A DNA stretch of 64,000 bases from a virus. A model generated the notes under the pieces. That model searched no databases and was not told the DNA's origin. It worked only from the letters and a program-made list of their open reading frames with translations. The translations under genes and the position numbers were made by a program. Below, one piece after another: positions 2,258 through 60,083 of the stretch (within the stretch, counting starts at the first letter, position 1; each line of letters opens with the position of its first letter). The DNA is taken from UHGV virus genome UHGV-1364187; one strand, written 5' to 3'.

Positions 2258-3985
2258 ATGATAGGAAGACAGATGAATATATATACTAGAAAGCCTGTTA
2301 TGCTTACAGTAACATGGAAAGCTAATGGTGTTGTATTAAAAGAAGAACAAGTAGAAATAGGAGATCCTGCAACACCTCCAACTAATGTAAGTATAGAAGG
2401 ATATGATTTTTTAGGATGGGATAAAGATTATTATAGAATTATGAACAATATGGTTATAAATGCTAAATTAAAGATTAAAACTTACACTGTAAGATTCTTT
2501 ATGAGTGGTATATTATTATCAACACAATATGTAGAATATGATAAATCTGCAAATCCACCAACAAATCTAACAATACCAGAGGGATATATTCATAAAGGAT
2601 GGGATAAAGATTATACACACATCAAGAGTGATACAGATATTAATGCTATTATAGATATTAAAAGATTCATGGTATACTTTTATGATAATTCTTATGATGC
2701 AAAATATAAGAGAAATGTATTAAAAACAGAAGAAGTCGAATATGGTAAAGATGCAACCCCTCCTACATCTATAAATACTCCAATAGAACAATATAAAGTT
2801 CTTTCTGGATGGATTATGAGTTCTATATCACAATATACATATAGAGAAGATCATAAAAACATTAAAGATGAAATGCACTTATATCCATTTATTACAAATG
2901 ATTGGTATTTTGCAGATGGTGTATATAATGAAGTAAGTTCATATAGCTTTACATCTCCTGTCACTGGAGCTGTAACACAAAGTTCATACTCTTGCTTCTT
3001 TGGAGATTTATATAAGAAAAATGTCCAAGGTGCTACAGGTTATGATCTAGAATATAAATATTTTAATACAGAATTGTCTAAATTATCATATGATACTTCA
3101 TATATTAATGCAGAAATTCAAAACTTGATGTATATATGTACTGTAGAAGTATTAAAGAGTGGTGCTATAACACTGACAGCAACAATTGATGGTATAACGC
3201 ATAGTACTACTATAAATGGAACAAGATTATATACTAAAGATGAATTGATATATAATGTAGGATTAAATTATAATATATTTACAGATAATCCTACAGGTGA
3301 TGATTTCTATAAACTAGAACAATGGTATGGTAATCCACTTATTCATATAATTCCATTATATGATGAATCTGGAAACTTTGTAAAGAACTTTGCTGGATAT
3401 GGAGAATCATCTACTCCTTATAATAGTAACAATCTTGTACAAATAGAGAGTGCTGAAAATATGATAGTGCGTACAGAGGATTATTATCTACATGCTGATG
3501 ATTTCGCTGATAGAACTCATCCTATTCTATTAGATGCTATTATGAAACCTGGAACATTCTCTATTACATTTAAAGGAACACCATATTTTGGTTCTCCTAT
3601 AACATGTAAGAAAGTTATAAATATTGCAGATAAAGGTATTTCTTCTATAGAATATAATGGAAATGCTATAACTGAATTAGAAATTCCAGTTAGTCAAACT
3701 ACAACTTTAAATTACAAAGTTAAGAGATCTGTTAATGGATCTTCAGAACAATGGTTTGATACAACACAAAGTACATGGAATGGTAAGAGTGTAAAAGATA
3801 TTGTAACTGTAGGAGTATTTGCTGGATATAGTTATGATCCATATACACAAGTTCCTAGAATGGATATAGAAATTACATCAGGTGGAATAGCTATAACACC
3901 TAAACTTACTGGATATGCGTTATTAGAAATAAAATGTAATGATAATAGTGAATATACAAGACATGTATTATTAATAATCAAATAA
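2258..3985 (+). CDS. Listeria-Bacteroides repeat (Flg_new-type) domain protein; likely surface/structural or host-binding
   Basis: AGGAGG RBS 8 nt upstream of the ATG. Repeated motif P(P/T)TN(V/L)..EGY.F.GWDKDY (EGYDFLGWDKDYYRI, EGYIHKGWDKDYTHI, YKVLSGW), characteristic of the PF09479 repeat. Confidence 0.6.
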   Translation: MIGRQMNIYTRKPVMLTVTWKANGVVLKEEQVEIGDPATPPTNVSIEGYDFLGWDKDYYRIMNNMVINAKLKIKTYTVRFFMSGILLSTQYVEYDKSANPPTNLTIPEGYIHKGWDKDYTHIKSDTDINAIIDIKRFMVYFYDNSYDAKYKRNVLKTEEVEYGKDATPPTSINTPIEQYKVLSGWIMSSISQYTYREDHKNIKDEMHLYPFITNDWYFADGVYNEVSSYSFTSPVTGAVTQSSYSCFFGDLYKKNVQGATGYDLEYKYFNTELSKLSYDTSYINAEIQNLMYICTVEVLKSGAITLTATIDGITHSTTINGTRLYTKDELIYNVGLNYNIFTDNPTGDDFYKLEQWYGNPLIHIIPLYDESGNFVKNFAGYGESSTPYNSNNLVQIESAENMIVRTEDYYLHADDFADRTHPILLDAIMKPGTFSITFKGTPYFGSPITCKKVINIADKGISSIEYNGNAITELEIPVSQTTTLNYKVKRSVNGSSEQWFDTTQSTWNGKSVKDIVTVGVFAGYSYDPYTQVPRMDIEITSGGIAITPKLTGYALLEIKCNDNSEYTRHVLLIIK

Positions 3986-3991
3986 AAAATA

Positions 3992-4034
3992 AAATACATA
4001 GAGAAGATTAAATTTCTTCTCTATGTATTTTTTA
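3992..4034. terminator. Bidirectional rho-independent terminator
   Basis: aatacatagagaaga-ttaaattt-cttctctatgtatt perfect 15-bp stem flanked by an A-run and a T-run, lying between convergent genes. Confidence 0.65.
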
Positions 4035-5222
4035 TTATTCTTCATTTTTTAATATATCTAACCCTACATAATTAGAAAATGTATCAGAAAGTCTATCACT
4101 AACATTATCAAGAATACTAATACATTGTTCTAAATAATTTCTTATATATAATGAATTATATACATAAACGTTTCCGTTATATAACAATAATACCGTCGTA
4201 GCACCATATTTTTCTAGAACTTTTTCTTCTTCTATTTCGTTAAATTGTTTAATGATTTCTGATATATTATCTTTAGCCTGTTTTAATAAATCTTCTCTAT
4301 AAAAATCATTTTTATTTACTATATCCATAATAGTATTAATACTATTCATAGATGTATACATAAATATTATTCCAGATTTAATTTGGAAATCTGAATCATT
4401 TAATGGATAAACTATTGGAGCTAAATCTAATTGGGATACATTACCAACTACTTCTCCATCTTTATATATATAATCATTATTTATAAACAACATTTCGTCT
4501 GTAAGTAAGATGGCTTTAGACATCATTAAATCTTCGTATGGTATAATCATATTAGTTGGAACATAGCCATCTACATTGTACATATTTGTTGTAGATACTG
4601 ATGCTACATTAGTTCTTAGATCATTAATAAGATATATTGATCCGTTATGATAAATATAAAATCTAGTATCTTGACCATTATAATAATCACTATAAACAGT
4701 CTTGATAATATCATACATAAAAGATTGTATCTGTTGATTTTTAACAATACTTTCCATACAACATTTTGTTTCTAATAATAACATTTCTTTCATATACATT
4801 CCTGGAATACAGAATGTTCTAATCATACCATCTTTGATTTCACATCTATATTGTGGGTATGAATCAAAGATATTAAGTTTTCTAGTTTCAAATCTAATAC
4901 CTTCTAATTCTCCATTATCATTTGTATATTCAGATACATATAAGAATGAATCTTTTAGTTGTAAATCTAATGATGTAATAGTTCCTTCTCCATTATCATA
5001 ATATACATGATATGTTTCGTTATCTTGATCAAATATCACTTCGTCGATATCATAAATTTCTATGATATTATTATCTATAATAATTCTATCTACTGTATCT
5101 ATTGTATCTAGTTCTAATTTAATATTTCCATCTTCCATTCTTTCTAATTTAGCCTTTTCAGTTTCACACATAAATGCAATTCTTTTATCACTCATATTAT
5201 TTATCCTCCTCAGATAATTCAT
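4035..5222 (-). CDS. Hypothetical protein (395 aa)
   Basis: Long ORF in an AT-rich genome; AGGAGGAT RBS upstream of the ATG at 5222. Confidence 0.6.
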   Translation of the reverse strand: MNYLRRINNMSDKRIAFMCETEKAKLERMEDGNIKLELDTIDTVDRIIIDNNIIEIYDIDEVIFDQDNETYHVYYDNGEGTITSLDLQLKDSFLYVSEYTNDNGELEGIRFETRKLNIFDSYPQYRCEIKDGMIRTFCIPGMYMKEMLLLETKCCMESIVKNQQIQSFMYDIIKTVYSDYYNGQDTRFYIYHNGSIYLINDLRTNVASVSTTNMYNVDGYVPTNMIIPYEDLMMSKAILLTDEMLFINNDYIYKDGEVVGNVSQLDLAPIVYPLNDSDFQIKSGIIFMYTSMNSINTIMDIVNKNDFYREDLLKQAKDNISEIIKQFNEIEEEKVLEKYGATTVLLLYNGNVYVYNSLYIRNYLEQCISILDNVSDRLSDTFSNYVGLDILKNEE

Positions 5223-8074: not shown

Positions 8075-8095
8075 TATATCACTCCTTTATCATAA

Positions 8096-8136
8096 AAAAT
8101 AAAAGCATTTACGTTAATGTTCCACGTAAATGCTTT
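8096..8136. terminator. Bidirectional rho-independent terminator after the beta' N-fragment
   Basis: aagcatttacg-ttaatgttcca-cgtaaatgctt stem flanked by an A-run and a T-run. Confidence 0.65.
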
Positions 8137-8144
8137 TTATTATA

Positions 8145-8495
8145 TTAGAAGTGTTTCTGTTCTTTTATTCTCTTAATCTTCTCTAATTGTTCTTGAGAAT
8201 AGTTCTTTCTAGATAATCCAATAAGTGTATTAATATTAATAATAGTATCTCTTGAGTGGTTCATTGCTTTATTAAACATACCATTATTTCTAGAGATATA
8301 TAATGCATTTCTTGGATTAAGAACTTTAAATGCTTCTTCATAGAATGCTTTGTTATTAATTAGGAATATAGATAACGTATCACCATCAAAATCTGCAGCC
8401 ATAGTCTTTAAGATCTGTAATGGTAATGCCATTGTATATGTGTCTAATATTCCTACTACATGCATTTGTAAAATACTTCCATATGAAATTGTAGG
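8145..8495 (-). CDS. RNAP beta' subunit, N-terminal fragment, exon 2 (contains the AADFDGD catalytic motif)
   Basis: TMAADFDGDTLSIFL matches the universal NADFDGD Mg-binding motif of multisubunit RNAP beta'. The preceding PTISYGSILQMHVV region corresponds to E. coli NRAPTLHRLGIQAF. The exon boundary is approximate (+/- ~10 nt). Confidence 0.75.
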   Translation of the reverse strand, partial: PTISYGSILQMHVVGILDTYTMALPLQILKTMAADFDGDTLSIFLINNKAFYEEAFKVLNPRNALYISRNNGMFNKAMNHSRDTIININTLIGLSRKNYSQEQLEKIKRIKEQKHF

Positions 8496-8986
8496 CTCCG
8501 TCTTCACATAGAGTCGTGACTTCTATGCAGTTCTCTTATGAACTTCTATGAGTATTACTCATAAGGAGAGACTATATCTTCATCTTTTACTATTCTTATA
8601 TTATTTCAAATATAAGATACTACTAGCAGTCAGATGCCTTGCACTTCGGATATACTATATCCTACTCTACTCACTTCGTCTATATCTAATTTATTAGATA
8701 TACCTTATTTTTAACTAGATTACTAGTATATTAGCTTTCGATAGTCGTTGAACCTTCTCCTATATAATTTATATAAGAGCTTGGCTGCTGATTGGACATT
8801 GTTTGTTACTTGGCACGATACTTAGGCTCTCACCATATATCATCTTAATGATTATTTCTGTCTTTCGACTGCCATTCACGCTTACCTGTTACAGTTACGT
8901 TGTAGCTCATTAAGCATTAGCCCTTCCCAGACAAGTTCACAAGGTTTTTCTCCGTACATTTCTGTAGGGAGGACCCATCCACAAAT
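8496..8986 (-). mobile_element. Group I self-splicing intron (ORF-less, ~491 nt) inside the beta' gene
   Basis: A GC-richer island separates two ORFs that together give a colinear beta'. On the minus strand it contains GTTCAACGACTATCGAAAG (an R/P6-like core shared with the nrdD introns) and GAAGATATAGTCTC (11/12 match to the S element AAGATATAGTCC), followed by a P9-like hairpin (tatgagtaatactcata). The 5' exon ends in U and the intron ends in G. Confidence 0.65.
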
Positions 8987-10147
8987 AGGTCGATTTATTA
9001 AAATAGGTATACCTTGACCGTCATCTATTAAAGATTGAATAATATTTCTAACTCTTTGGTCTTCTTGAATAGTGGCATAATACCAAATATTATGTGCTTC
9101 ATCATAAGACATATTATAAGATTTTACTAAAACATTTATAATTCTCTGTTCTAATAATCCTACTAATGCAAAGTATGATAATTTTACTTGGTCTACTTTT
9201 AATGTATCATCTGGAATGATTACACATCTAGAAGAGAAGTTAAATCTTCCTCCGAATACTCCTCTAAATATACCTTTCTTTCCAGATAATATATTTTCAA
9301 CTTCAGCATAAACTTTATTAAGTTTATATTGTAAATCGTATAATAATTGTAATTTAGGTTTCTTCTTTCTATGAATACGTAATGTATTCATATTGATATC
9401 ATGAACTAATTTTACAATCATATTATACAATCCATTAATATCGTTGAATACAAAGTTTCCACCATCAAGTTTGAATGGTCTTAATAGTGTCGTAAATATT
9501 GGTATAGAATGAGTAAATATCTTATCTTTATTCTCTAACAAATCAAGATAAGTATCAGTCTTAGCTTTCTTATTAGAAGAATTATTGTAATAATAATCTA
9601 AAACTGTTTCAAAGTTATCTCTTAACCATAATATACCTTTTCCTTTATATGGTTCATCTTTAACTTGTTTATTTTCTTCTATTGTAAATCCATCTTCATT
9701 CTTATTGTCTATTGGTTTTATGATATTATAAAGTTTCTCTGTTCCAATAATAGTCTCTAATTCTTTATATAGATTAGGATGGATTATACAATATTCATCT
9801 TTCAATACTGTCCAACCAAATAAGTCATAATTATCATCAACAAACTTTACTTTAGTATTACATATAGGACATGTCATGCCATTATTAATTTTACCCATAG
9901 TGTAACCACATGAACATTTATATTTGTTAATGAACGGGTTAGAGTCATTTAATGTAGAACCAAATCTAGTACTAAAAATACCATTTGGTTCTTTTAAATC
10001 CTTCTTAATGTTTTGATGTTGAAAGATAATGAACCCGTTACCAGTACGAAGATCATTATCTTTCTCTTTATCCAAGTCAATTCTTTCTAGTAATGTTTCA
10101 ACTTTAAATAAATTTCCAAGTTCATCTACAAGATGTGGATAATTCAT
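8987..10147 (-). CDS. RNAP beta' subunit, N-terminal fragment, exon 1 (zinc finger to NRP)
   Basis: CxC..(13)..CxxC zinc finger (YKCSCGYTMGKINNGMTCPICNTKV); FRGVFGGRFNFSSRCVIIPD matches beta' [27 protein letters not shown] matches LLNRAP. GAAGGAG RBS upstream. In the unspliced genome the ORF runs on to a stop at 8882. Confidence 0.75.
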
Positions 10148-10164
10148 ATTTATATCATCTCCTT

Positions 10165-10205
10165 CAATAATATAATATATAAGTTAATAATAAGTTACAT
10201 ATACA
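10165..10205. terminator. Strong hairpin (18-bp stem, aagttacatatacattaa/ttaatgtatatgtaactt)
   Basis: Perfect inverted repeat between the 10214..10687 gene and the beta' N-fragment. Confidence 0.5.
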
Positions 10206-10213
10206 TTAATTTT

Positions 10214-10687
10214 CTAATGTATATGTAACTTATTATATTTATATTTATATTCTATAGACTTAGAATCTCTTTCTTGCTTCTTTTCTATCCACTCTTGAAC
10301 TTTATCTTTTATTTTATACTTGTTCACTAAACAACAGATTACATTATATGTGTCATTCATTGAATAGAAAAACCTAGATTTATAATTATTATACAAATAA
10401 GATTTACTAACAAGTTGTTGAAATCTTGATAAATTATAAATACACTGTTTAAGACTATATTCACGTCTTGATATTCTTATTCTCGCTTTCTTTTCGATTT
10501 TATGTCTAAGTCTATATAAACATGTGTAAACATCACATATTTCTTCAGAAAGATGATATATATCAATTTCTTGTTCAGATAAGCAATTTATCAATTCTGA
10601 TAACTCTTCTTGCATCTTCATAAAAATAAAATCATCACCACTCATATCAGTGATACTATGTTGTAATTTTGTATCTATTAAAAACAT
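10214..10687 (-). CDS. Hypothetical protein (157 aa)
   Basis: ORF abutting the upstream gene (4-nt gap). Confidence 0.5.
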   Translation of the reverse strand: MFLIDTKLQHSITDMSGDDFIFMKMQEELSELINCLSEQEIDIYHLSEEICDVYTCLYRLRHKIEKKARIRISRREYSLKQCIYNLSRFQQLVSKSYLYNNYKSRFFYSMNDTYNVICCLVNKYKIKDKVQEWIEKKQERDSKSIEYKYKYNKLHIH

Positions 10688-11864: not shown

Positions 11865-13052
11865 CTATACTACATTTTTATGTGTTCTATATTTTACAAT
11901 ATCACTTATAGTACTAATATTATATCCAGTACTATATTTTATTTCAGTTAGTGTCATACCCTCTTGTTCATACATTCTTCTTATATCTCTTACAATATCA
12001 TCTGTTATACTTCTTCCAGGAGCATTGGATAAATCATATTGTTCATATATATCTCTATGTGCTCTACCGCTAGTAATATTCACAATAGTTTTTCTATTTA
12101 TATCAAGATGATGTGATATCATTGTTGGAGTATATCCATTGGAAAACAATATCATTATATTATGCACATCTTCATCTGTAATCTTAGTTGGAACATAAGC
12201 ATTAGATAAATCGTATTGATTTCTAATATCTAAATGTTTCTTTCCACCATATACAATATTAGTTACAGTTTTTCTATTTAAATTTAATTCATCTGCAATC
12301 TGATATGCTTGATACCCTTGAGAATATAATCTAAATATATCATGTAAAGTATCTTCTGGAAGTAATCTTGTAACTTGATCTAATTCTAATTCTTCATATA
12401 CATCTTTATGGCTAGAACCACATGATATATTTCTTACATTAACATATGAAACTCCAGTTTTTTCTGCAATTTCTTTAAGAGATAATGTTGTATCCTTAAT
12501 AAGATTACCAACTTCATAAGCTTTCTCTTTAGATATACATATAGCTTCTACTTCTGGTCTTAATTCTTCATATGAATGATGAACATTTTCTAATGGAGTA
12601 GCCCATTCAAGATTACATAACCAATTACACCATGTACAACCATTTATATGATTGACTTGATATTGTTCTGGATTTTCTATTGGAAGAAATGTCATCATTA
12701 CTAATCTATGAACAAAGTATATATGTTTCTTTCCATCAAGACATGATAATCCAACTCGTAGATATCCTTTATCTGTAGATTGTTGTTGCATGAATACATT
12801 ATTAAGTAATGAGAATATTCTTCCGTAATTACTTACCATATATCTTCCAGGAACAATTTCTTCTGAATTTATAAATACAAATATTTCATCTGGAGCCATA
12901 AGTGGGATATATGTATATTCTTGTTGATAATTTGAAAATTGTTCTGGTATATAATTTGGTGGTAGTTCTTTTCCAGTCTTAGAAATATATGCTGGAATTA
13001 TTAAATTTTTGATTTCTTGTCCTTCTTTATACTCTTTGTTTTTGTAATACAT
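11865..13052 (-). CDS. HNH homing endonuclease (NUMOD4-like N-terminus, HNH_3 core, four NUMOD/IENR-type helix-turn-helix repeats)
   Basis: HRLVMMTFLPIENPEQYQVNHINGCTWCNWLCNLEWATPLEN is a textbook phage HNH motif. The C-terminus has four ~35-aa repeats (..LNLNRKTVTNIVYGGKKHLDIRNQYDLSN..). Confidence 0.8.
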   Translation of the reverse strand: MYYKNKEYKEGQEIKNLIIPAYISKTGKELPPNYIPEQFSNYQQEYTYIPLMAPDEIFVFINSEEIVPGRYMVSNYGRIFSLLNNVFMQQQSTDKGYLRVGLSCLDGKKHIYFVHRLVMMTFLPIENPEQYQVNHINGCTWCNWLCNLEWATPLENVHHSYEELRPEVEAICISKEKAYEVGNLIKDTTLSLKEIAEKTGVSYVNVRNISCGSSHKDVYEELELDQVTRLLPEDTLHDIFRLYSQGYQAYQIADELNLNRKTVTNIVYGGKKHLDIRNQYDLSNAYVPTKITDEDVHNIMILFSNGYTPTMISHHLDINRKTIVNITSGRAHRDIYEQYDLSNAPGRSITDDIVRDIRRMYEQEGMTLTEIKYSTGYNISTISDIVKYRTHKNVV

Positions 13053-13128: not shown

Positions 13129-14364
13129 CTAGTTTATATTTAATATTCCAAATGCATCATTTAACATATCAGTAATGTCAGTAGTTTTAACAACACTATT
13201 ATGAAACGCTTTTAAGCTTCTTTGTTTGGTTGTTGAAGCGATTTTGCTCATAGCCATACCTATATGGGCTATACCTATTCTTCTAAATAGACTACTACCA
13301 CATACCTCACATATATCTTCACCTTCACATAATGCAGCGAATCTAAGATTAACAGTTTTATCTATAAATTGATTCTTTGTATCTGAAGTAATTTCAATTA
13401 CTTTATCTCCTTGTTGGACAAAACAATACATATATTGTTTAATATTCTTCTTTGTTAATTTAACTCTAATTGTACGTTTCGTTTTACAATCACTTCCCTT
13501 AGGAGAAATAGAAATATGTTGAAATCCACTGAATAATAATTTCTCCCAATATCCACCAATTTGAGTTTTGATAGCTCTCGCTGTTGCTCCAGGTGCAATA
13601 GAGTTAGCAAATATATGATAATCCTCTTTAGATATACCATCCATATAACATGATGTAGCTATATCATATTTACCTGTTACGTTATTATATACAGCACCTT
13701 TCATCATACACATATTCTTTAAGTTATTTTCAATATTACCTCTGGCTTTACAATCAAAGATTTCCATCGCATCATCATCTTTTAATATTTCTTTTGTTTG
13801 TGCTATTAATTGATTAGAAATATCTTCTGCTACAACTTCATCACCATCTTCAAGAGCTTTCTTATTCTCTTTAATAAGTTTAGTCTTTAATGGCTTAAGT
13901 TTATCTGATAAAGATAATATAGCATCATCATAATGAGCTGCTAATACTGTAGTTAATCTCATTAGTATTTGTGACTTTAATAAGAAATGTTTTAATGCAT
14001 CTAATGGTACTTTATCTTCCAATCTAGCATATGTAATATCAGATACAATATCATTAAATACATCATCATCTACAGAATAATTTATATACTTTTCTAATTC
14101 AAATAGTTCTTTCTCTATACATAGTCTATTAAATATCCATAACCCTACAGTAGTTGTAAATTCATTCTTATTTCTCTTTCCTTCAGGACCATAAGAATTT
14201 GGTGGAATTTTAATATAATTAAATGGTTCAAATCTTCTTTTATTGTTAAACTTTCCAAGTAATTCTATAATAAGACTTATAGTTAAATCTTTTTCTTCTA
14301 AAGATAATAGATAATCTATATCTTCTTGTTTTGTTATAAACACACCATCTTTTACTTTAGGCAT
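13129..14364 (-). CDS. RNAP beta' subunit, C-terminal fragment (bridge-helix/trigger-loop region)
   Basis: TTTVGLWIFNRL matches beta' TTVGRAILWMIVPK. AKARGNIENNLKNMCMMKGA...ATARAIKTQIGGYWEKLL matches SGARGS..QLAGMRGLMA...ADTALKTANSGYLTRRLV. EDICEVCGS matches DFGVCAHCYG. Start chosen at MPKVKDG (AAAGGAG RBS) rather than the upstream ATG that lies inside the RBS. Confidence 0.75.
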   Translation of the reverse strand: MPKVKDGVFITKQEDIDYLLSLEEKDLTISLIIELLGKFNNKRRFEPFNYIKIPPNSYGPEGKRNKNEFTTTVGLWIFNRLCIEKELFELEKYINYSVDDDVFNDIVSDITYARLEDKVPLDALKHFLLKSQILMRLTTVLAAHYDDAILSLSDKLKPLKTKLIKENKKALEDGDEVVAEDISNQLIAQTKEILKDDDAMEIFDCKARGNIENNLKNMCMMKGAVYNNVTGKYDIATSCYMDGISKEDYHIFANSIAPGATARAIKTQIGGYWEKLLFSGFQHISISPKGSDCKTKRTIRVKLTKKNIKQYMYCFVQQGDKVIEITSDTKNQFIDKTVNLRFAALCEGEDICEVCGSSLFRRIGIAHIGMAMSKIASTTKQRSLKAFHNSVVKTTDITDMLNDAFGILNIN

Positions 14365-14454
14365 ATTATAATCTCCTTTCATCTAATTTATATTAATTAG
14401 ATGTAAACAGACAAAAAATAAAAGAGCAGAAACTAATCTACTCTTTTATATGTA

Positions 14455-16573: not shown

Positions 16574-19030
16574 TTAAATACGAGTTATCTCTATCATGTC
16601 TTCTGGAATACAACTATCATTATAAGTATTGATAACTTTTATATCTAATTCATGTTGGAACATAAAATGGTTTATATCATCAAACTCATAGAATATTTTA
16701 AACCATATTTCTTCTCTGTTAATTCCAATAAATTCTGGATCATCTGGTTTATCTCCAAGATCTAATCCCCAACCAATACTAATTTCATCTCTAATTGGAA
16801 TTTTATCATCTAATGTATTATATACTTCAAACATTGGAGTTTCATCAAACTCAGTGTATGTTTTTACATCAAAAGCACTAATCCATCTCATGGTATCAAT
16901 AACTTTTATTTTATTACCAATAACATCATCAAATCTATACACTGTATTGATCTTGTCTAATTGAATTTTATAAGATTTATAAAAGTTTATTACAGTATAG
17001 ATATATTGTTTTACTACATTACCTATCATTGGCATATTCATGAATAGATAATCAAATTCACTACAATTAATATAATCTTCTAATGAAGATAATATCTCAA
17101 TCATAGTATCAGAAATAGCATTCTCTTTTTCTTTTCCGTCTAATAATCTTATATTACTAATATGATTATAAATATCTATATTATTATATAAGAAGTATTC
17201 TGTATATGTTTTAGCCATACTACCATCTGGTAATTGATATACTTTATTTGATACGTCTGTTACCATTAATGCATTATATATATCTTCATATATTCTGTAT
17301 ATATCAGCATCGTTAGCATTTTTCATTTGATATATAATATGATCATAAATCTTCTTATTAGTAAGGAATATATTAGTTAATTGATTGAATGTAAGAATTT
17401 GTTCTGTTGGTATAATAAATTCATCTATTCCTAGTTGTTCTAAAGTTACATGATTATTCATTAGATATTCTGATAATTTGGTAAAATCTAATTGAAAATT
17501 AAATCCCATAACAGATAATACTTTAGACGGTGCATCAGACACAATATCATCTTGTAAACCTGATTGTTCATAATTAAGTAGATATAAATACATTATAGCA
17601 TGTTTAATATTGATAGATGCTTCTGATATCTTATACACTTTAATATTTAGATTGTCTTCTAAGAATACATCATCCATAATCATATTAAAGAAATAACATG
17701 TTTCAAATGTAAGTTTATCCATTTCATATATAGTATCTATAGATAAGTATTTACTTCTTTCTATATTAAATTCTCTAGATATGATTTGTTTATATATAGT
17801 ATCTTTATCATTACCTCCACACCAGAATGGATCATCCTTTGTCATATCCTCATATGATACATAACATTTATCATCTCTGATATAGTTATCAAGTATACCA
17901 TCTATTGGAACTTTGATAAATTTAAGTTCAAAATTATTTACATAATCATCAACAGTTTCATATTGACCAGTTTCTTGATTGATTTCTGTAACCGTATCAA
18001 ATAAATATTCACCGTTTTCATCAACTTTTCTAGCTCTAAGAATATAATATTTAAACAATTCTACATTCTTAAATCCGAATAATGAACATATATCAACCAT
18101 GTTCTTTGTAGTAGATTTAAATGTAAGAAGAGTATTCATATTCTTTAACATCGCTAATTGATATTTCATAGGTATTTCCTCAAAATATGTTATACCACTT
18201 GATTCAAATATATATTTTACAGTTCTAAGATCAAATACATCTTTACGAATAATCATATCTGGTATATCCATTAATAAATCACACATAGCTTGAATCTTTA
18301 TGAAGATTATTATAAATTTATTATAATAATCATTTTTATAAAGCATAGCATCTTTATATAAACATGTAAGAGCATAAGTTCTTGCATTCTCTATTTTTTC
18401 CCTATATCTATTCTTTATTTCTGTTATAGATACTTGTGGCATATAAATAATACCAAATCTAGGTAATGTTCTTAATAGATATGGATCTATACTTAATGAT
18501 CCTAAATAATTAAGATATTCAGCATCAGGATATAATTCTCTATATTTATCTAATATACCCAATCCTTCTAATACATTTAATTCACTAGTAGTCATTTTAT
18601 GTAATGGTATTTTATTATTAACACCAGCTATTTGTTCCGTTATTTTTATACCATCATCATCCAACGGTGGTAATCCACAAAATGTTCTATAATAATCATT
18701 CTGTTCTTCATAATTATTTATAAAATCTCTAACAGCAATTTTTAATAATTTATCATGGTATTCTTTTGGAATATTAGCATGGAATACATATGGATCATCT
18801 GCTGTTAGTCCAACCTCATTAAGCTGAGCTACAGTATAATTAAACATATCAAATGATGCTAAACCTCTTCTACATTGTATATATGTATTTGCAATTCTTG
18901 ATATGTCTAATGTTTCGTATTTTCCGACTTCATCTTCATCTTTTAATATAGTATCCATCATTAATGTTTTCCCTACATGTATTAACGTGTCTACCATAGG
19001 ATAATCTGTTTCTATTTTATTATATGACAT
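16574..19030 (-). CDS. Large hypothetical protein (~818 aa)
   Basis: Start chosen at MSYNKIE (GGAGG RBS) rather than the upstream in-frame ATG at 19087. Confidence 0.6.
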   Translation of the reverse strand: MSYNKIETDYPMVDTLIHVGKTLMMDTILKDEDEVGKYETLDISRIANTYIQCRRGLASFDMFNYTVAQLNEVGLTADDPYVFHANIPKEYHDKLLKIAVRDFINNYEEQNDYYRTFCGLPPLDDDGIKITEQIAGVNNKIPLHKMTTSELNVLEGLGILDKYRELYPDAEYLNYLGSLSIDPYLLRTLPRFGIIYMPQVSITEIKNRYREKIENARTYALTCLYKDAMLYKNDYYNKFIIIFIKIQAMCDLLMDIPDMIIRKDVFDLRTVKYIFESSGITYFEEIPMKYQLAMLKNMNTLLTFKSTTKNMVDICSLFGFKNVELFKYYILRARKVDENGEYLFDTVTEINQETGQYETVDDYVNNFELKFIKVPIDGILDNYIRDDKCYVSYEDMTKDDPFWCGGNDKDTIYKQIISREFNIERSKYLSIDTIYEMDKLTFETCYFFNMIMDDVFLEDNLNIKVYKISEASINIKHAIMYLYLLNYEQSGLQDDIVSDAPSKVLSVMGFNFQLDFTKLSEYLMNNHVTLEQLGIDEFIIPTEQILTFNQLTNIFLTNKKIYDHIIYQMKNANDADIYRIYEDIYNALMVTDVSNKVYQLPDGSMAKTYTEYFLYNNIDIYNHISNIRLLDGKEKENAISDTMIEILSSLEDYINCSEFDYLFMNMPMIGNVVKQYIYTVINFYKSYKIQLDKINTVYRFDDVIGNKIKVIDTMRWISAFDVKTYTEFDETPMFEVYNTLDDKIPIRDEISIGWGLDLGDKPDDPEFIGINREEIWFKIFYEFDDINHFMFQHELDIKVINTYNDSCIPEDMIEITRI

Positions 19031-19139
19031 TATATTTACCTCCATTTCATTTATCAATTTACTTATATGTAAAAATGTTCTAAACATATGATATTACAAC
19101 ATAATAGTAAATTGATATAGAAAGAGGTGTAAAAAAAAT

Positions 19140-36072: not shown

Positions 36073-39000
36073 TTACATTTGGTCTAAATATTTCCATTTA
36101 ATTCCCGCTAAATCTTTTGCATGTCTGTCTAATTCTATCATAGCTTTATTAATAGCACCAACAATAATAGGTGCTCCTGTCATACGTGCTAATGTAGATG
36201 CAACACATAATATAGTATGGATTTTTTCATCTGGTCTATATGATGATGTTGGTTCTTTTCCTTTTTCTAATACAGTTCTACATACACCCTTTACAGCAGA
36301 ATAATCTACAATTTTATCACCAACTGCTAATTTGTCTTCATATTCTAGATATATCTCTATAAGAATTCCGCTTTCAATATTTTTAAGTTTTCCAACAACA
36401 GGCAATGCTTCTGTAGATTCTAATCCATAAATATAATCTATTCCATATTTCTTTTGAGCAGACTTTATTTTTTTAATAGGTTTTTCAATTTCAGTTACAA
36501 ACTTCTTAAGAGAATCTGATAGTTCATCTATTTCACATGTTCTATATACTTTGATATCACTTATGATACCATTAGCTTTAGCTTTAATTGTAAATCTTCC
36601 AAGATCAGATACAAGTTCGACATCTCCAGATAAAGATTTCATTAAAGCATTAACATCTTCTTCATCATATGCGTCTTGAAATACTAATAATGTATCTCCT
36701 TCTTGCACATAATCCCCTTTCTTTACAATATCTAATAATATAGCATTTTTATCCATAGATACATCTTTCTTAACGTCTATATATGACGTTAATGCATCTG
36801 ATAAATATTCTGAAACGATTGTACTATCTTCAAATCCTTCTTCTGTAGACATAATAGCTACTTTAGTTAATAATCCCATTGAGTATGTAAGATTATCATT
36901 AGCACCATAAGCATGGTCAAAACTAAATTTATCATAGGCTATAATATCATTAGCTTTGAATTTATCTCCAACTTTTAGTTCTGTACTAAGTTGTAATGTG
37001 ATATAGAATCCACCATCTGAATTTTTTCTAATATTGTTTCTTAAATCTATAAAATCATGAGTTCCATCAGAATAAGTTACAATCATATAGTCATCTGTAA
37101 TAGTCTCAACTGTACCATTCTTTTTAGCTTTAAATGCAAAGTTATTTGTTACCATATATGGTAAAGCTTGATCTGCACCGTTTGTAATTAAAGATGGGAA
37201 TGATATTTTTGTTGGTAATTGATGTTTTGATGTTTGGATAAAGTCCATTGCTGAACGCATAGCATCATTACGTGTTACACCATATGGAGTTAATGCTTCT
37301 TGGATAGAAAATGAACTAGTAATATTCATATCATCTCTATTTTTAGTGGTTTTAATATACCCCCTAATAGTATCAACATTCATATTTATTGTAGCCTGCC
37401 TTACAATACCAGAGTTACCAGCGAAGTTTGTAGCACATGCTAATATATTAATCATAGAAGGATCATATGAACGTTTATCAGCTTTATATGCTCTATCTGC
37501 ATTCATACCAGAATGACCTTTAGTTGATAATGCATTAATAGCTTCTAACTCTCCAATAGGAGTAGTATATGAGTAATCACCAGCAGTATTAGCCATTAAT
37601 ACTTCATCTATTACTGCAGATTGTTTCATTGATATAGTGGCATTCTTAAATCCTTTTTTAATTTTATTTTTATAATCATTATAAGCATATGCCAATTCCT
37701 TATAAGCATAAGCTGCCACTATTTCATTACTACGATATCTATATGCATCCATGTTAGTATGATTACTATACTGTGTTGATGCTAGTAAATCATTTGCATA
37801 TAACAATATGTCTGTAAATTCTGTAGGTAATCCGTAATGAATCAATGATTGCAATGTGATATAATCAATCATACAATCATAGAAGTTTTCTATACCATCA
37901 GATAATTTAGCTCTAGGACCATAATTATCTAAGATTTCTATCCACATAGATTTTGAATCTATATCTCCAATAGAATATATTTCTGTAGTGACATCTTTAA
38001 TTCCATTTAGTAATAGATTTGAACTGTTAGTACATTCAAAAACTATATATCCATCTGAAAATCTTATAAAATCTGCATTATCTGCTTTTTTGTCACTTTG
38101 ATCAAGTTTTTCTTTTATAGTATATTTAATATTAGCTTTTTTAAGCATTTCAGTTAAACCAATTTGATAGCATATGATGATAGCTAGTGGAATTTGAGTA
38201 TTAAGAATACTAGCTCTAGAATAAATATACTTCTTACCTTTAGTTGTATTATTGTATAATTCTCTAAGTTCATTATCGTCTCCAATTAATAAGTCCAATA
38301 TTTTATTAGGGACATCTGGAAATGAACTATAGATAACTTCTTTAGACGTTTTGTGATATGCAATAGGAATTTTTCCTTGTGGAACTTTCTCTATATTATA
38401 TTTAGTTCTAATCTCTTTTTGATTAAGATATACTATAACATCTTTAGTTTCTAACTTATTGTACTGAGAAGCTAAATATTCATATGTATATGGTACATCA
38501 TAAATATTATTAGCTAATGTACAATCTCCTATAGTAGATTTTATCTTATCTGTTTTGTTTATAGTTTTTATCAATCTGTCAGTAACAGAATCTGATTTTT
38601 GTCCATATCTTTTAATGAAGATTTTATTGTAGTTTGATACAATTTGAACAGTATCTGGGTCTGTTTTTGATATTGGTAACAATAATAATTGACCATTAAT
38701 AGTCTTATCATTACCTTTAATAATAAGAAACTTATTATCTTTAAACTTAGGTACGTCGAATTTAAATTGAAATCTTTTACCGAACGAATCTTCGCAAAAT
38801 ACAGTATATGTATCTTTATAATCTTCTGACGTTGATGAATCTTCAATTTTTATATCTCTTACTGCAACAGGATAAGATGATTTTGTAAGAAGTTCTGTAA
38901 TACAGTTAATTATATCTTTATTTACATCATAATCGTTTTCGATATTCATATATTTTAGATTAGACCATTCCTCTTCATTTACAGTGTCAATTCTTGTTGA

Positions 39001-40410
39001 TAAATTAGTTGATGTGAGTTCTTTATCAGTATCAGGACCAAGAATATCATCTAGTTTAATATTGTTTATTTCTTTTTGTCTTAGTTCTTTATTAAGATTT
39101 TCTAAACGGTCTAATCGTTGTTTGCTTATTTTACCACTATTATCTTGCTCAGCTGCCATTTTCAATATTAATTCTTTAAACTCTGGATCGTTCTCTAATT
39201 CTTCCATAGTAGCTTCTATATCTGAAGATTTTTCTGCAGCATTTTCAATTCTATTTAATAATTCTTTTTCATCTATAGAACCATCTTCTCCAGTAAGAGA
39301 ATTGATCTTGATTTTAGCCTTACCAGTTTCTAGTTTAGATAGAATAGCCATTACAATAGATTTTGTTGATGAATTATTATTAGCCATGCTATCTTGTTCT
39401 TCTGGTGGAATTGGCAAATTGTTTTCAATGATATTAATAAACTTATTAAATTTGATATAAGTTTCATTGTTGATATCATCTACTACTAATTTGAATTGAG
39501 TATTACCATTAGTAAATACAAATTCTTCACCAGATAGAAGTTCTTTAATCTTATCTGGATTTCTTCTTAATAATCTTGAGAATAATGATATAGGATTGAT
39601 ATTTTTCATATCTAATGTAGAATTCACACCTTCTGGAAGATTCCTATACCAACCATCAACAGGTATATATGACACTTTATTATATGAATCAAATCTTTCA
39701 TCTTTAATAAATCTATGAAGTAGTTCTAAGTATAGATATATACCTTTCATATTACTCATATAATTATTTTTAAAGAAATTTTCATTATAATAAAAGAAGT
39801 CTACATACATATTACGTCTTCTATATTTGTCCATATAAAGATATGCGTATTTGATAGATTTACATTCTTTCTTAATCTTATCATATACCAATACTACATC
39901 TTTTGGTGTTTTAAATCTTTCTCTATATAGTAATTGTTTTAAGATTTTATTGTATTTTGAAGATGATAGAATATTACTATTATCTTCTGCTTCTAGTAAA
40001 GAATTTAGTTTATCATTGTTAATGATTGTAATGCTAGATTCATCCATAATATAATCAATTCCAAATTCATTCATAGCTTCTAGTAAACCTTCTTTAGTTT
40101 GAGTATATAGATATCTATGTTTCTCTACATCTAATACCGTTTCGTTGATTATACTATCTTCTTCTAATATAATATCATCACTGTTTGATAAGAATGATTC
40201 TTGAGATATAATAAACGAAATATCTTTCTCAATATAATATGAGTCATATTGTTTATTACAATCTTTTGTATTGATAATCTTTATAGATTCATCAATATTT
40301 GGTGTTATTAAAAACATAATACTATCTTTGAGTTTATTTTTCGTATTGAACGGAAAATAAACAGGTTTATTGTATAATTTCATATTCTTTAAATCTTTAT
40401 ATAAAATCAT
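36073..40410 (-). CDS. Multisubunit RNA polymerase beta-like subunit (1445 aa, highly divergent)
   Basis: C-terminal KLAVGDKIVDYSAVKGVCRTVL matches beta GDKMAGRHGNKGVVSKI. HTILCVASTLARMTGAPI matches VLNPLGVPSRMNIGQI. The mid-region KRSYDPSMINILACATNFAGNSG matches [23 protein letters not shown]. GGAGG RBS. Confidence 0.8.
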   Translation of the reverse strand: MILYKDLKNMKLYNKPVYFPFNTKNKLKDSIMFLITPNIDESIKIINTKDCNKQYDSYYIEKDISFIISQESFLSNSDDIILEEDSIINETVLDVEKHRYLYTQTKEGLLEAMNEFGIDYIMDESSITIINNDKLNSLLEAEDNSNILSSSKYNKILKQLLYRERFKTPKDVVLVYDKIKKECKSIKYAYLYMDKYRRRNMYVDFFYYNENFFKNNYMSNMKGIYLYLELLHRFIKDERFDSYNKVSYIPVDGWYRNLPEGVNSTLDMKNINPISLFSRLLRRNPDKIKELLSGEEFVFTNGNTQFKLVVDDINNETYIKFNKFINIIENNLPIPPEEQDSMANNNSSTKSIVMAILSKLETGKAKIKINSLTGEDGSIDEKELLNRIENAAEKSSDIEATMEELENDPEFKELILKMAAEQDNSGKISKQRLDRLENLNKELRQKEINNIKLDDILGPDTDKELTSTNLSTRIDTVNEEEWSNLKYMNIENDYDVNKDIINCITELLTKSSYPVAVRDIKIEDSSTSEDYKDTYTVFCEDSFGKRFQFKFDVPKFKDNKFLIIKGNDKTINGQLLLLPISKTDPDTVQIVSNYNKIFIKRYGQKSDSVTDRLIKTINKTDKIKSTIGDCTLANNIYDVPYTYEYLASQYNKLETKDVIVYLNQKEIRTKYNIEKVPQGKIPIAYHKTSKEVIYSSFPDVPNKILDLLIGDDNELRELYNNTTKGKKYIYSRASILNTQIPLAIIICYQIGLTEMLKKANIKYTIKEKLDQSDKKADNADFIRFSDGYIVFECTNSSNLLLNGIKDVTTEIYSIGDIDSKSMWIEILDNYGPRAKLSDGIENFYDCMIDYITLQSLIHYGLPTEFTDILLYANDLLASTQYSNHTNMDAYRYRSNEIVAAYAYKELAYAYNDYKNKIKKGFKNATISMKQSAVIDEVLMANTAGDYSYTTPIGELEAINALSTKGHSGMNADRAYKADKRSYDPSMINILACATNFAGNSGIVRQATINMNVDTIRGYIKTTKNRDDMNITSSFSIQEALTPYGVTRNDAMRSAMDFIQTSKHQLPTKISFPSLITNGADQALPYMVTNNFAFKAKKNGTVETITDDYMIVTYSDGTHDFIDLRNNIRKNSDGGFYITLQLSTELKVGDKFKANDIIAYDKFSFDHAYGANDNLTYSMGLLTKVAIMSTEEGFEDSTIVSEYLSDALTSYIDVKKDVSMDKNAILLDIVKKGDYVQEGDTLLVFQDAYDEEDVNALMKSLSGDVELVSDLGRFTIKAKANGIISDIKVYRTCEIDELSDSLKKFVTEIEKPIKKIKSAQKKYGIDYIYGLESTEALPVVGKLKNIESGILIEIYLEYEDKLAVGDKIVDYSAVKGVCRTVLEKGKEPTSSYRPDEKIHTILCVASTLARMTGAPIIVGAINKAMIELDRHAKDLAGIKWKYLDQM

Positions 40411-43309: not shown

Positions 43310-43441
43310 TGCAATAAACATCTAAAATACATATAGAAATATACGTATACTCATTATATTTGATGAGTATACGTATATTTAATGTCTAATAAACACTATA
43401 ACATCATAGTAATTCTAGATATTTTAAGGAGGAATTTATTT

Positions 43442-44305
43442 ATGGAAGAATTTAAAAGTGTAATTAAAAGAAATGGTAAAATTGTAGATTACGATAGAAA
43501 TAAGATTAAAACTGTTGTTAGAAATAGTGGTCTTACAGATGAAGATAAATTAGAAGAATTTACATTGGAAGTTGAAAAACGACTACTAATAGAAAATGAA
43601 TCAGTTGATCATCAAGGTATATTTGATGTTGAACTAATTCAAGATATTATCATCCATCTGTTAGGACTATTAGGATATAAAAACGAACAAAATGAGTATA
43701 AGAGATATAAGAAAGAACGAGAAAAGATTAGACAGTCTAAATCTGATTTATTAAAAGTGGTTCATTCATTAGGTGTTGAAACTGATAGAGACAATGGGAA
43801 TGTTGGTAATAACTTCAGTGCCAAGTTATTACGTATTGCTAGCGAAACAAATAAATGTACGAATCTAGCATTAAATATTCCTAAGCATTTAGCGAAACCT
43901 CATGAAAATCATGATTACCATACTCATGATCTAGATAGTTATAATCTTACTACAAATTGTTTACATAATGACACTGGTGCTATATTAAAGAGAGGATTTA
44001 ATACTGGATATGGGTGGATTAAACCACCTAAAAGAATCGAATCAGCTGCCAACCTTACATGTATTATTATTCAATCACTTCAGAATGATTTTTATGGTGG
44101 GCAATCTTGTGTTGATATTGATAATGACCTTGGTGAATATGTAGAACCAACAAGACAAGAAATTATTGAAAGATTAGAACCTACAAGAAAATATGTACCA
44201 GAAGATGTATTCAATGATACAGTTGAAAGAATGTTAGATGAACAAATTCATCAAGCAGCACAGAATATTTGTTATAATCTTAATACTATGCATAGTAGAG
44301 CAGGT
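43442..44305 (+). CDS. nrdD: Anaerobic ribonucleoside-triphosphate reductase NrdD, exon 1 (ATP-cone and N-terminal region)
   Basis: AAGGAGG RBS. MEEFKSVIKRNGKIVDYDRNKIKTVV is an ATP-cone. HDLDSYNLTTNC...NLNTMHSRAG is colinear with class III RNR. The 3' exon boundary is approximate. Confidence 0.75.
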
Positions 44306-45463: not shown

Positions 45464-45766
45464 AGTCAAGTTCCATTTAGTAGTTTAAATATTGGACTTC
45501 CTAAAAATAAAAATGGTGCTAGAGTATGTATGGCATTATTAGAAGAATACGATAAAGGTATGGGAAAAGGAGAACAAATGATTTTTCCTAATATTATCTT
45601 TAGATGTAAAAAAGGTATTAACAAAAATCCTAATGATCCATATTATTATTTATATGATAAAGCTTGTGATGTAGCAAGTAGACATATGAATCCAACATTT
45701 ATGAATATTGATAGTAAAATTAATATGGAGTTATGGAAAAAAGGTATTACACCTGCAATCATGGGT
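45464..45766 (+). CDS. nrdD: NrdD, exon 2
   Basis: SQVPFSSLNIGLP...FPNIIF...PAIMG continues NrdD; the exon ends with ...ATG GGT immediately before the in-frame TAA. Confidence 0.65.
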
Positions 45767-60058: not shown

Positions 60059-60083
60059 ATTAATATGAAAGTAGGTGATATAA

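What the first reader, a model, noticed from the sequence alone, without database searches (positions are those of the whole stretch)
8145..10147. Group I intron inside the catalytic region of a phage multisubunit RNAP beta' gene
Two minus-strand ORFs (8987..10147 and 8145..8495) translate into a colinear beta' N-terminal half: zinc finger, the [8 protein letters not shown]-like block, LLNRAP, then NADFDGD. They are separated by 491 nt of GC-richer, non-coding sequence. On the coding strand that segment carries GTTCAACGACTATCGAAAG, an S-box-like GAAGATATAGTCTC, a P9-like hairpin and a terminal G. These core elements are shared with the two nrdD introns in the same window. An intron placed ~20 codons upstream of the Mg-binding DFDGD loop of an RNA polymerase is a striking location. 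The genomic ORF would otherwise terminate just after NRP.
Basis: partly seen in the sequence, partly recalled or inferred. Interest (0 to 1): 0.75.

Follow-up and report, generated by a model that had tools for sequence, protein, structure and literature searches.

The report
Group I intron in phage RNA-polymerase gene
A 491-base self-splicing-type (group I) intron without a gene of its own interrupts the catalytic-subunit gene of a gut jumbo phage's own RNA polymerase; the call is correct, but such introns are already known in related jumbo phages, so it is a new example rather than a new phenomenon.

Summary
On the minus strand, exon 1 is 8987..10147, the intron is 8496..8986 (491 nt, no ORF) and exon 2 is 8145..8495.

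- **Protein evidence.** Joining the exons gives a 503-aa beta' N-terminal subunit that reads ...ILINRP|PTISYGS...AADFDGD. Intron-less homologues up to 79% identical read NRPPTISYGSILQM. The AR9 non-virion RNAP beta'N structure (7S00) aligns without a break across the junction.
- **RNA evidence.** The insert matches Rfam group I (RF00028) over the full model at E 1e-8. It scores 40.4 bits, below the curated 50, while a same-site orthologue scores 57.1. The splice sites are canonical: a U.G pair in P1 (exon GACCU with guide GGGUC) and a terminal G. All 84 modelled pairs are kept in two copies that are 75% identical, and 15 pairs are doubly compensated.
The site lies 35 codons, not about 20, before DFDGD. 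Only one of the two nrdD introns shares the core strings.
- **Novelty.** It is a new member of a known kind. AR9's orthologous gene carries an HNH-containing intron inside DYDG|D. Related metagenomic phages carry one at DFD|GD. Published work states that jumbo-phage RNAP genes are often intron-disrupted.

Splicing itself has not been tested.

The parts
8987..10147 (-). Exon 1 of the non-virion RNAP beta' N-terminal subunit gene (codons 1-387). It carries the Zn-finger cysteines C78/C80/C93/C96, the SGKKG..GGRFNFSSR block and ...ILINRP.
   Evidence: (invariant columns)
8496..8986 (-). Group I intron, 491 nt, without an ORF
   Evidence: Rfam RF00028 E 1.1e-8. Boundaries come from the intron-less homologues P0001/P0003. 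Covariation with the L004 copy.
8145..8495 (-). Exon 2 (codons 388-503 plus the stop at 8145..8147): PTISYGSILQM...AADFDGD...
8972..8991 (-). P1. The last exon bases GACCU (8991..8987) plus AU pair with AUGGGUC (8978..8972, the internal guide sequence). U8987 pairs with G at the 5' splice site.
   Evidence: Read from the sequence and the Rfam alignment. GACCU is kept in all three intron-bearing alleles although the Arg codon differs (CGA or AGA). The intron-less allele has GCCCU.
8950..8971 (-). P2 hairpin (CUCC-C-UAC / GUA-C-GGAG)
   Evidence: Compensatory changes in L004 and L003.
8939..8944 (-). P3, 5' strand (pairs with 8637..8642)
8788..8930 (-). The P4-P5 domain with a long P5 extension. 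P4 is 8927..8930 with 8788..8791 and P5 is 8920..8923 with 8794..8797. There is a GAAA tetraloop hairpin at 8860..8869 and a UAUGG/CCUAAG motif at 8821..8837.
   Evidence: Reading UAUGG/CCUAAG as the 11-nt tetraloop receptor is inference from established knowledge.
8751..8786 (-). P6/P6a
   Evidence: The second P6 pair is C-G, U-A and A-U in the three copies.
8735..8753 (-). Conserved 'R' element GUUCAACGACUAUCGAAAG. The P7 5' strand GACUA is 8742..8746.
   Evidence: The first 18 bases of this string (GTTCAACGACTATCGAAA) occur in 119 or more viral contigs, among them contigs the length of the AR9 and phiR1-37 genomes.
8643..8734 (-). Peripheral hairpins between P7 and P3' (the P7.1/P7.2 region, typical of subgroup IA), including the conserved GUGAGUAGAGUA at 8663..8674
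   Evidence: The assignment to P7.1/P7.2 is inference.
8637..8642 (-). P3, 3' strand
8581..8636 (-). P8 with an extended stem
8568..8581 (-). Conserved 'S' element GAAGAUAUAGUCUC. The P7 3' strand UAGUC is 8570..8574.
8507..8564 (-). P9 (8546..8564), P9.1 (8530..8543) and P9.2 (8507..8527) hairpins
   Evidence: L004 lacks P9.1.
8496..8496 (-). Terminal G of the intron (omega-G); the 3' splice site follows it
8882..8884 (-). In-frame stop codon that would end translation of unspliced RNA, 34 codons into the intron

Best explanation
The insert is a group I intron without an ORF, with subgroup-IA-like architecture. It sits in the gene for the N-terminal half of the beta' subunit of the phage's non-virion multisubunit RNA polymerase, within the codons of the universally conserved NRxPT motif, 35 codons before the catalytic DFDGD.

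**Inferred mechanism**
- In the primary transcript, the last exon bases GACCU pair with the intron's guide sequence GGGUC to form P1, with a U.G wobble at the splice site.
- A free guanosine bound in P7 attacks after U8987.
- The released exon 1 then attacks after the terminal G8496.
- The ligated mRNA encodes a 503-aa subunit reading ...ILINRPPTISYGS...
- Unspliced RNA would yield only a truncated 421-aa product that lacks the active site.

**Origin.** The intron has no endonuclease gene. It appears to be inherited with the gene in a small clade of gut jumbo phages and lost or absent in close relatives.

**Shown:** the sequence, the structural conservation and covariation, and the exact restoration of the reading frame.
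**Inferred:** that splicing occurs and is autocatalytic.
For: - **Covariance model.** RF00028 matches over model positions 1-253 at E 1.1e-8. The orthologous same-site intron in L004 scores 57.1 bits, above the gathering score of 50.
- **Structure found independently.** RNAalifold on the window and L004 copies recovers P2-P6, P8 and P9.
- **Covariation.** With P7 added, 84 of 84 pairs are standard in both copies although the two are only 74.9% identical. Fifteen pairs changed on both sides, against 0-2 in slid controls.
- **Splice sites.** Canonical U|...G| boundaries. The exon part of P1 (GACCU) is kept in three intron-bearing alleles across different Arg codons.
- **Restored reading frame.** The spliced ORF reads NRPPTISYGSILQM, as in the intron-less P0001 (79% identical), and is one residue shorter than P0003.
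- **Protein family.** PF00623 rises from 16.5 and 20.4 bits to 44.8 bits as one stretch across the junction. AR9 beta'N (7S00_d) aligns across the junction at E 2e-43.
- **Stability in nature.** The intron is 100% identical in contigs from four metagenome samples.
- **Precedent.** AR9 g270 is annotated as a joined CDS around an HNH gene. The deposited AR9 protein sequence reads DYDGDVLN across that junction.
Against: - No RNA data exist, so splicing is untested.
- The window copy scores below Rfam's curated cut-off (40.4 against 50 bits). It is invisible to whole-window scans.
- The covariation rests on only two full-length copies plus one partial copy. The structure was partly derived from the same alignment, which inflates the 'cells paired' measure.
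- The MFE z-score is modest (-2.58).
- The peripheral helices (P5 extension, P7.1/P7.2, P9.x) are only provisionally assigned.
- P10 is weak: 6 bp with a bulge, judged by eye.
Confidence: 0.88

Rival explanations
1. The insert is a decayed group I intron that no longer splices. The gene would then be a pseudogene, or be expressed as two separate polypeptides. This would amount to one more 'split' of beta', as is common in jumbo-phage RNAPs.
For: - Jumbo-phage beta and beta' genes are naturally split into several genes.
- The window copy is below Rfam's gathering score.
- It has lost, or never had, a homing endonuclease gene.
Against: - Every one of the 84 modelled pairs is intact, and 15 are doubly compensated relative to a copy that is 75% identical. 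This indicates selection on the RNA fold.
- The core strings match the Rfam consensus.
- Exon 2 has no ATG or Shine-Dalgarno sequence. Its only start is a GTG at 8507, inside the P9.2 hairpin.
- The break falls inside the conserved NRxPT motif, not at the known split site after the DPBB domain.
- The identical intron persists in four samples on a 256-kb contig.
Confidence: 0.06
2. The intron splices but is not autocatalytic in vivo. It would depend on a phage or host protein cofactor, or be mobilised in trans by the free-standing NUMOD4-HNH endonuclease encoded 1.7 kb upstream (11865..13052).
For: - The upstream ORF carries NUMOD4 and HNH_3 domains plus HTH repeats.
- It is homologous (E 2e-17) to the endonuclease encoded inside the related DFD|GD intron of L131.
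- Free-standing endonucleases that target intron insertion sites are known in T4-like phages and cyanophages (own knowledge).
Against: - An orthologue of this HNH (57% identical) sits at the same place upstream of the intron-less allele in L005.
- No HNH is found in the upstream DNA fetched for the intron-bearing L003 and L004 (3 kb).
- HNH presence therefore does not track the intron.
- Nothing in the sequence speaks to a need for a cofactor.
Confidence: 0.05
3. The insert is another kind of intervening element (an intein, a group II intron or an insertion sequence), or the two ORFs are unrelated neighbours.
For: None found.
Against: - The insert has stops in the exon frame, so it is not an intein.
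- The only significant Rfam family is group I.
- There are no transposase genes or terminal repeats.
- The ORFs are colinear halves of PF00623.
Confidence: 0.01

Closest known systems
Bacillus phage AR9 (and PBS1) g270 intron: a group I intron with HNH gene g271 in the non-virion RNAP beta' N-terminal subunit gene (Lavysh et al. 2016, as cited; GenBank KU878088 annotation)
   Same: - It is in the orthologous gene. AR9 beta'N (7S00_d) is the best solved-structure match, at E 2e-43.
- It belongs to the same phage group I family, sharing GTTCAACGACTATCGAAA, GUGAGUAGAGUA and AAGAUAUAGUCU.
- It also lies in the active-site region and obeys the U|...G| rule.
   Different: - AR9's intron lies 38 codons further downstream, between DYDG and D of the Mg-binding motif.
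- It carries an HNH homing endonuclease ORF in the P6 loop and is about 900 nt long.
- The window's intron is at NRP|PT, has no ORF, and has different P1/P2 helices.
Unpublished metagenomic relatives L131-L134 (for example OGDF01000160.1 and IMGVR_UViG_3300030447_000083): a 1287-nt intron at DFD|GD of the same gene
   Same: - Their 5' part is 79% identical to window intron positions 30-168 (late P2, P3 5' strand, P4/P5 5' strands and the P5 extension).
- They share the same tetraloop hairpin and receptor motif and the same S box.
   Different: - The insertion site is different: exon 1 ends ...GAC TTC GAT.
- The guide sequence (GUCG) and P2 differ.
- They encode a 275-aa NUMOD4/HNH_3 endonuclease.
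- The host gene is only 45% identical.
PhiPA3 gp211/209 intron with HNH endonuclease gp210 (Birkholz et al. 2024, PMC11620839)
   Same: It is a group I intron that interrupts a jumbo-phage multisubunit RNAP subunit gene.
   Different: - It is in the virion RNAP subunit of a Pseudomonas chimallivirus.
- It carries a nicking HNH that acts as a weapon against co-infecting PhiKZ.
- The window's intron has no endonuclease, so that mechanism cannot apply directly.
Classical phage group I introns: T4 td, nrdB and nrdD(sunY), Staphylococcus phage Twort/K/812, SPO1 DNA polymerase
   Same: - Same ribozyme class and same conserved R/S elements.
- Insertion in codons of highly conserved motifs of essential nucleic-acid-metabolism enzymes.
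- blastn similarity of 68-70% to Staphylococcus phage 812 and K-like introns.
- The window's own nrdD intron 2 scores 51.3 bits on RF00028.
   Different: The host gene is different, and the P5 extension with its tetraloop-receptor module is larger. The assignment of the T4 and Twort introns to subgroup IA2 is from memory and was not tested here.

Membership tests
Group I catalytic intron (Rfam RF00028) | Significant match of sequence and structure to the conserved core (P3-P9, P/Q/R/S elements) | tested here: met
   model positions 1-253 of 253, 40.4 bits, E 1.1e-8. The R element is at 8735..8753 and the S element at 8568..8581.
Group I catalytic intron (Rfam RF00028) | Rfam's curated gathering score of 50 bits (an operational cut-off, not a biological feature) | tested here: not met
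   - The window copy scores 40.4 bits, and whole-window scans find nothing.
- Calibration: the same-site orthologue L004 scores 57.1 bits and nrdD intron 2 scores 51.3 bits.
- The accepted AR9 g270 intron reaches only 28.8 and 16.8 bits, in two fragments.
- The shortfall therefore reflects long peripheral insertions.
Group I catalytic intron (Rfam RF00028) | 5' splice site after a U that forms a U.G wobble in P1 with an internal guide sequence | tested here: met
   Exon GACCU (8991..8987) pairs with GGGUC (8976..8972). The same pairing is seen in L003 and L004.
Group I catalytic intron (Rfam RF00028) | Intron ends in G (omega-G) | tested here: met
   G8496. L004 ends ...AAUUG, L131 ends ...AAUUG and AR9 ends ...AAAUG.
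Group I catalytic intron (Rfam RF00028) | P7 helix (the guanosine-binding site) forming a pseudoknot with P3 | tested here: met
   GACUA (8746..8742) pairs with UAGUC (8574..8570), nested across P3 and P8. The helix is invariant in both copies, so covariation is uninformative here.
Group I catalytic intron (Rfam RF00028) | Helices supported by compensatory substitutions | tested here: met
   84 pairs, 100% paired, 15 with changes on both sides against 0-2 when slid. Only two full-length sequences were available. The partial L003 copy adds further compensations in P2, P6 and the receptor stem.
Group I catalytic intron (Rfam RF00028) | Guanosine-dependent self-splicing with exon ligation | not testable with these tools
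   This needs in vitro transcription and GTP labelling, or RT-PCR.
Subgroup IA (IA2-like) group I introns | Extra helices P7.1/P7.2 between P7 and P3' | tested here: inconclusive
   About 92 nt with three or four hairpins lie between P7 and P3' (8643..8734). The conserved GUGAGUAGAGUA is shared with nrdD intron 2 and AR9. No subgroup-specific model was available.
Mobile (homing) group I intron | An intron-encoded homing endonuclease | tested here: not met
   No ORF of 40 aa or more lies in the intron on the coding strand beyond exon read-through. Relatives at other sites do carry HNH ORFs.
Mobile (homing) group I intron | Presence/absence polymorphism among close relatives | tested here: met
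   - Intron-bearing alleles: window/P0002, P0005 and P0006.
- Intron-less alleles: P0001 (79% identical), P0003 (77%) and P0004 (64%).
- Only 3 of the 120 listed homologue clusters are interrupted at this site.
Multisubunit RNAP beta' (N-terminal fragment, jumbo-phage non-virion type) | Rpb1 domain 2 / DPBB with NADFDGD, plus the N-terminal Zn finger | tested here: met
   - PF00623 scores 44.8 bits against a cut-off of 25.3.
- AADFDGD lies at 420-426.
- C78, C80, C93 and C96 are invariant.
- Best solved structures are AR9 nvRNAP beta' (7S00_d, E 2e-43) and phiKZ nvRNAP (7OGP_A).

The most novel reading that the evidence does not exclude
The stretch of about 40 codons that encodes the beta' active site (NRxPT to DFDGD) would be a recurrent landing zone. 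One intron lineage would have been re-targeted to at least three positions in different jumbo phages, by swapping P1/P2 around a shared catalytic core: NRP|PT here, DFD|GD in L131-L134 and DYDG|D in AR9. On this reading the ORF-less copy here is not a dead hitch-hiker. It could be mobilised in trans, or retained because it protects the site from the HNH endonucleases of co-infecting relatives (immunity to 'intron weapons' of the PhiPA3 gp210 type). It could also couple synthesis of the middle/late RNA polymerase to GTP or Mg2+ status.
Probability: 0.12. Interest if true: 0.55.

Novelty: new member of a known kind. Interest (0 to 1): 0.3.

Why it matters
- **Annotation.** Gene callers split this essential gene into a 421-aa product and a 106-120-aa 'hypothetical'. 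In the public protein collection, P0002 is stored as a 421-aa 'beta' subunit' with intron-encoded residues at its end. Default Rfam scanning misses the intron.
- **Biology.**
  - The finding adds a third insertion site to the active-site region of jumbo-phage non-virion RNAP beta'.
  - It shows an ORF-less, apparently vertically inherited copy: intron divergence is 75% and exon divergence is 77%.
  - This fits the established view that phage group I introns settle in the most conserved codons of essential enzymes.
- **Limits.** It does not open a new question. The phenomenon, including in this very gene, has been published for AR9 and noted for Staphylococcus jumbo phages and PhiPA3.

Tried and rejected
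- **Whole-window Rfam scans.**
  - Scans at gathering score and at E up to 0.01 returned nothing.
  - A 6-kb scan over nrdD and a 16.8-kb scan of three loci also returned nothing.
  - Only stretches of 1 kb or less passed the filters.
- **Phage record search.** megablast of the region against 50,697 phage records gave only a 76-nt intron-core match, so the phage is not in INPHARED.
- **Viral contigs.** A single-protein search of IMG/VR for relatives found none.
- **Trans-homing by the free-standing HNH (11865..13052).** I considered this and set it aside. Its orthologue accompanies the intron-less allele, and it is missing near two intron-bearing alleles.
- **ORF 4035..5222.** It is also 395 aa but is unrelated to the HNH.
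- **GGGCU/AGCCU as P5.** I considered this pairing and rejected it in favour of GGGC/GUCC plus a UAUGG/CCUAAG receptor hairpin. The latter is what Rfam and RNAalifold place, and it shows C-to-U wobble-preserving changes.
- **blastn hit at 55855..55902.** This hit to the intron (51 nt, 78%) lies inside the giant ORF and was judged to be AT-rich chance similarity.
- **Papers not held.** Lavysh et al. 2016 and Korn et al. 2021 could not be read in their journal versions. I used the bioRxiv version of Korn instead.
- **Covariance model.** I built no model of my own, because the alignment (502 columns) exceeds the 400-column limit.
Full report
**1. What is in the sequence**

On the minus strand, an ORF of 421 aa (8882..10147) is followed by one of 120 aa (8145..8507).

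Each ORF alone gives a sub-threshold match to a different end of Pfam RNA_pol_Rpb1_2. The first matches profile positions 1-62 at 16.5 bits. The second matches positions 106-163 at 20.4 bits. The cut-off is 25.3.

It has 35.6% G+C, against 26-28% in the exons. It has no coding-strand ORF other than 34 read-through codons that end at the stop 8882..8884.

**2. Is it a group I intron?**

*Rfam.*
- Scans of the whole window found nothing.
- When only 8300..9200 was searched, RF00028 matched 8546..8996 over the whole model (1-253), at 40.4 bits and E 1.1e-8. That is below the curated 50 bits.
- For calibration, the orthologous intron at the same site in another metagenomic phage (L004) scores 57.1 bits.
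- The window's own nrdD intron 2 scores 51.3 bits.
- The accepted AR9 g270 intron scores only 28.8 and 16.8 bits, in two fragments.
- The shortfall is therefore explained by long peripheral insertions.

*Splice sites.*
- The last exon bases GACCU pair with GGGUC of the intron, giving a U.G wobble at the 5' splice site.
- The intron ends in G.
- No other pair of boundaries both satisfies the group I rules and gives the homologues' protein sequence.

*Covariation.*
- RNAalifold on the window and L004 copies (74.9% identical) independently returns P2, P3, P4, P5, a long P5 extension, P6/P6a, P8, P9 and P9.2.
- With the P7 pseudoknot added, 84 of 84 pairs are standard in both copies.
- Fifteen pairs changed on both sides, against 0-2 when the 3' partners are slid by 1-3 columns.
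- The partial third copy (L003) adds further compensations in P2, P6 and the receptor stem.
- Caveats: there are only two full-length sequences, and the structure was partly derived from them.

**3. Do the exons make one protein?**

Joining 8987|8495 gives 503 aa reading ...ILINRP|PTISYGSILQM...AADFDGD(420-426).
- A search of the 5.8-billion-protein collection found hundreds of intact homologues of about 500 aa.
- The closest intron-less ones, P0001 (79% identical, 503 aa) and P0003 (77%), read NRPPTISYGSILQM and NRPPTIAYGSILQM.
- Among the 120 best clusters, only three lack DFDGD, and all three stop shortly after INRP: P0002 (the window's own allele), P0005 and P0006.
- The spliced product scores 44.8 bits on PF00623 as one stretch, residues 299-444.
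- It aligns without a break over residues 104-475 to the AR9 non-virion RNAP beta' N-terminal subunit (PDB 7S00 chain d, E 2e-43). The next best match is phiKZ nvRNAP.
- The gene is therefore the N-terminal half of the non-virion RNAP beta'.
- The intron lies in the NRxPT motif, 35 codons before the first catalytic Asp.

**4. Origin and distribution**

- The window matches a 256.5-kb gut-metagenome contig (ENA ERZ27229639). The intron is 100% identical in contigs from four samples.
- The phage is not among 50,697 GenBank phage records.
- Same-site introns occur in L004 (405 nt) and L003 (cut by the contig end).
- All intron-bearing alleles keep GACCU before the splice site, although they use CGA or AGA for Arg. 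The intron-less L005 has CGC CCT.
- Intron divergence between the window and L004 (74.9%) is about equal to exon DNA divergence (77.0%). This fits co-inheritance with the gene plus loss or absence in sister lineages.
- The intron has no endonuclease gene.
- A free-standing NUMOD4/HNH_3 gene lies 1.7 kb upstream (11865..13052). It is homologous to intron-encoded HNH genes.
- Its orthologue also accompanies the intron-less allele, and it is absent near L003 and L004. I therefore do not tie it to this intron.

**5. Relatives at other sites, and what is already known**

- A pattern taken from the P5 extension found five further contigs.
  - Four of them (L131-L134) hold the break: the orthologous gene (45% identical) is interrupted between DFD and GD by a 1287-nt intron.
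  - The fifth (L130) begins inside the intron.
  - The 5' part of that intron is 79% identical to the window's intron, and it carries a 275-aa NUMOD4/HNH_3 ORF.
- In AR9, g270 is annotated as a joined CDS around HNH gene g271.
  - From the sequence, the intron lies between DYDG and D.
  - The deposited AR9 protein reads DYDGDVLN across it.
- The core string GTTCAACGACTATCGAAA occurs in 119 or more viral contigs.
- The literature held here makes three relevant points.
  - The AR9 non-viral beta' N-terminal subunit gene is intron-disrupted.
  - A PhiPA3 virion-RNAP gene carries an intron whose HNH endonuclease acts in phage-phage competition.
- An intron next to the RNAP active site is therefore precedented, not striking.

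**6.

nrdD is indeed in three pieces: 43382..44341, about 45460..45755 and about 46075..47035. Only intron 2 shares the R and S strings and GAGUAGAGUAGGAUA with the RNAP intron. Intron 1 carries a LAGLIDADG ORF (44398..45027) and none of these strings.

**7. Verdict**

The most likely mechanism is standard guanosine-initiated group I splicing that restores a 503-aa beta'N (confidence 0.88). Splicing itself is inferred.

- **Rivals.** The alternatives are a dead intron or split gene (0.06), cofactor- or trans-dependent behaviour (0.05) and another kind of element (0.01).
- **Novelty.** This is a new member of a known kind, with a new insertion site and an ORF-less form.
- **Interest.** It is low to moderate (0.3). 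It is useful for annotation and as one data point for an intron 'hot zone' around the beta' active site.

Noticed in passing
window 43382..47035 (+): nrdD (anaerobic ribonucleotide reductase) is split into three exons by two introns. Intron 2 (about 45755..46075) matches RF00028 at 51.3 bits, above the gathering score. Intron 1 (about 44330..45460) carries a LAGLIDADG ORF (44398..45027) and lacks the R/S strings of the other two introns, so its class is untested. The radical-SAM activase nrdG follows at 47791..48621.
   Followed up: partly
L131 3514..4800 (also L132, L133, L134; L130 partial): In a different metagenomic jumbo phage, the orthologous beta'N gene is interrupted inside the catalytic motif (DFD|GD) by a 1287-nt group I intron. 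It carries a 275-aa NUMOD4/HNH_3 endonuclease in the P6 loop. Its 5' part (late P2 to the P5 extension) is 79% identical to the window's intron, but P1 and P2 differ. This suggests one intron lineage re-targeted to a new site.
   Followed up: partly
L002 (AR9 KU878088) 3449..4345: The AR9 g270 intron is inserted between DYDG and D. That makes three different insertion sites within about 40 codons of this gene across phages.
   Followed up: partly
window 11865..13052 (-): A free-standing NUMOD4 + HNH_3 + multi-HTH endonuclease gene lies between two RNAP subunit genes. An orthologue (57% identical) occupies the same place in the intron-less relative L005. Its target is unknown.
   Followed up: partly
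window 13129..14382 (-) and 36073..40410 (-): Further RNAP subunit genes match PHROG 'RNA polymerase beta subunit' families (E 8e-56 and 1.5e-147). Both appear uninterrupted. The window also holds a 3355-aa ORF (49944..60011) and virion structural genes (16574..19087, 60065..61903).
   Followed up: no
L003 4162..4240: The same-site intron of L003 has an extra AT-rich hairpin of about 60 nt inserted in the P1 loop, between the 5' splice site and the guide sequence. The window and L004 copies lack it.
   Followed up: no
protein collection entry P0002 (JGI/ENA): The public protein record for this gene is the unspliced 421-aa read-through product, named 'DNA-directed RNA polymerase beta' subunit'. 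Its last 34 residues are intron-encoded, and exon 2 is called separately as a 106-aa protein.
   Followed up: yes
window 8085..8140 and 10190..10232: A hairpin followed by a T-run lies just after the exon 2 stop (aaaaagcatttacgtggaacattaacgtaaatgcttttatttttt) and is a likely terminator. A long AT-rich palindrome (ttacatatacattagaaaattaatgtatatgtaa) lies upstream of exon 1.
   Followed up: no
homologues P0001-P0120: Most beta'N homologues read NRNPT at the insertion site (75 of 81 scored). The intron-bearing alleles and their nearest intron-less relatives read NRPPT (6 intact). The Pro codon CCU supplies the U and the C-G pairs of P1, so the exon sequence may be shaped by the intron, or may pre-adapt the site for it.
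   Followed up: partly
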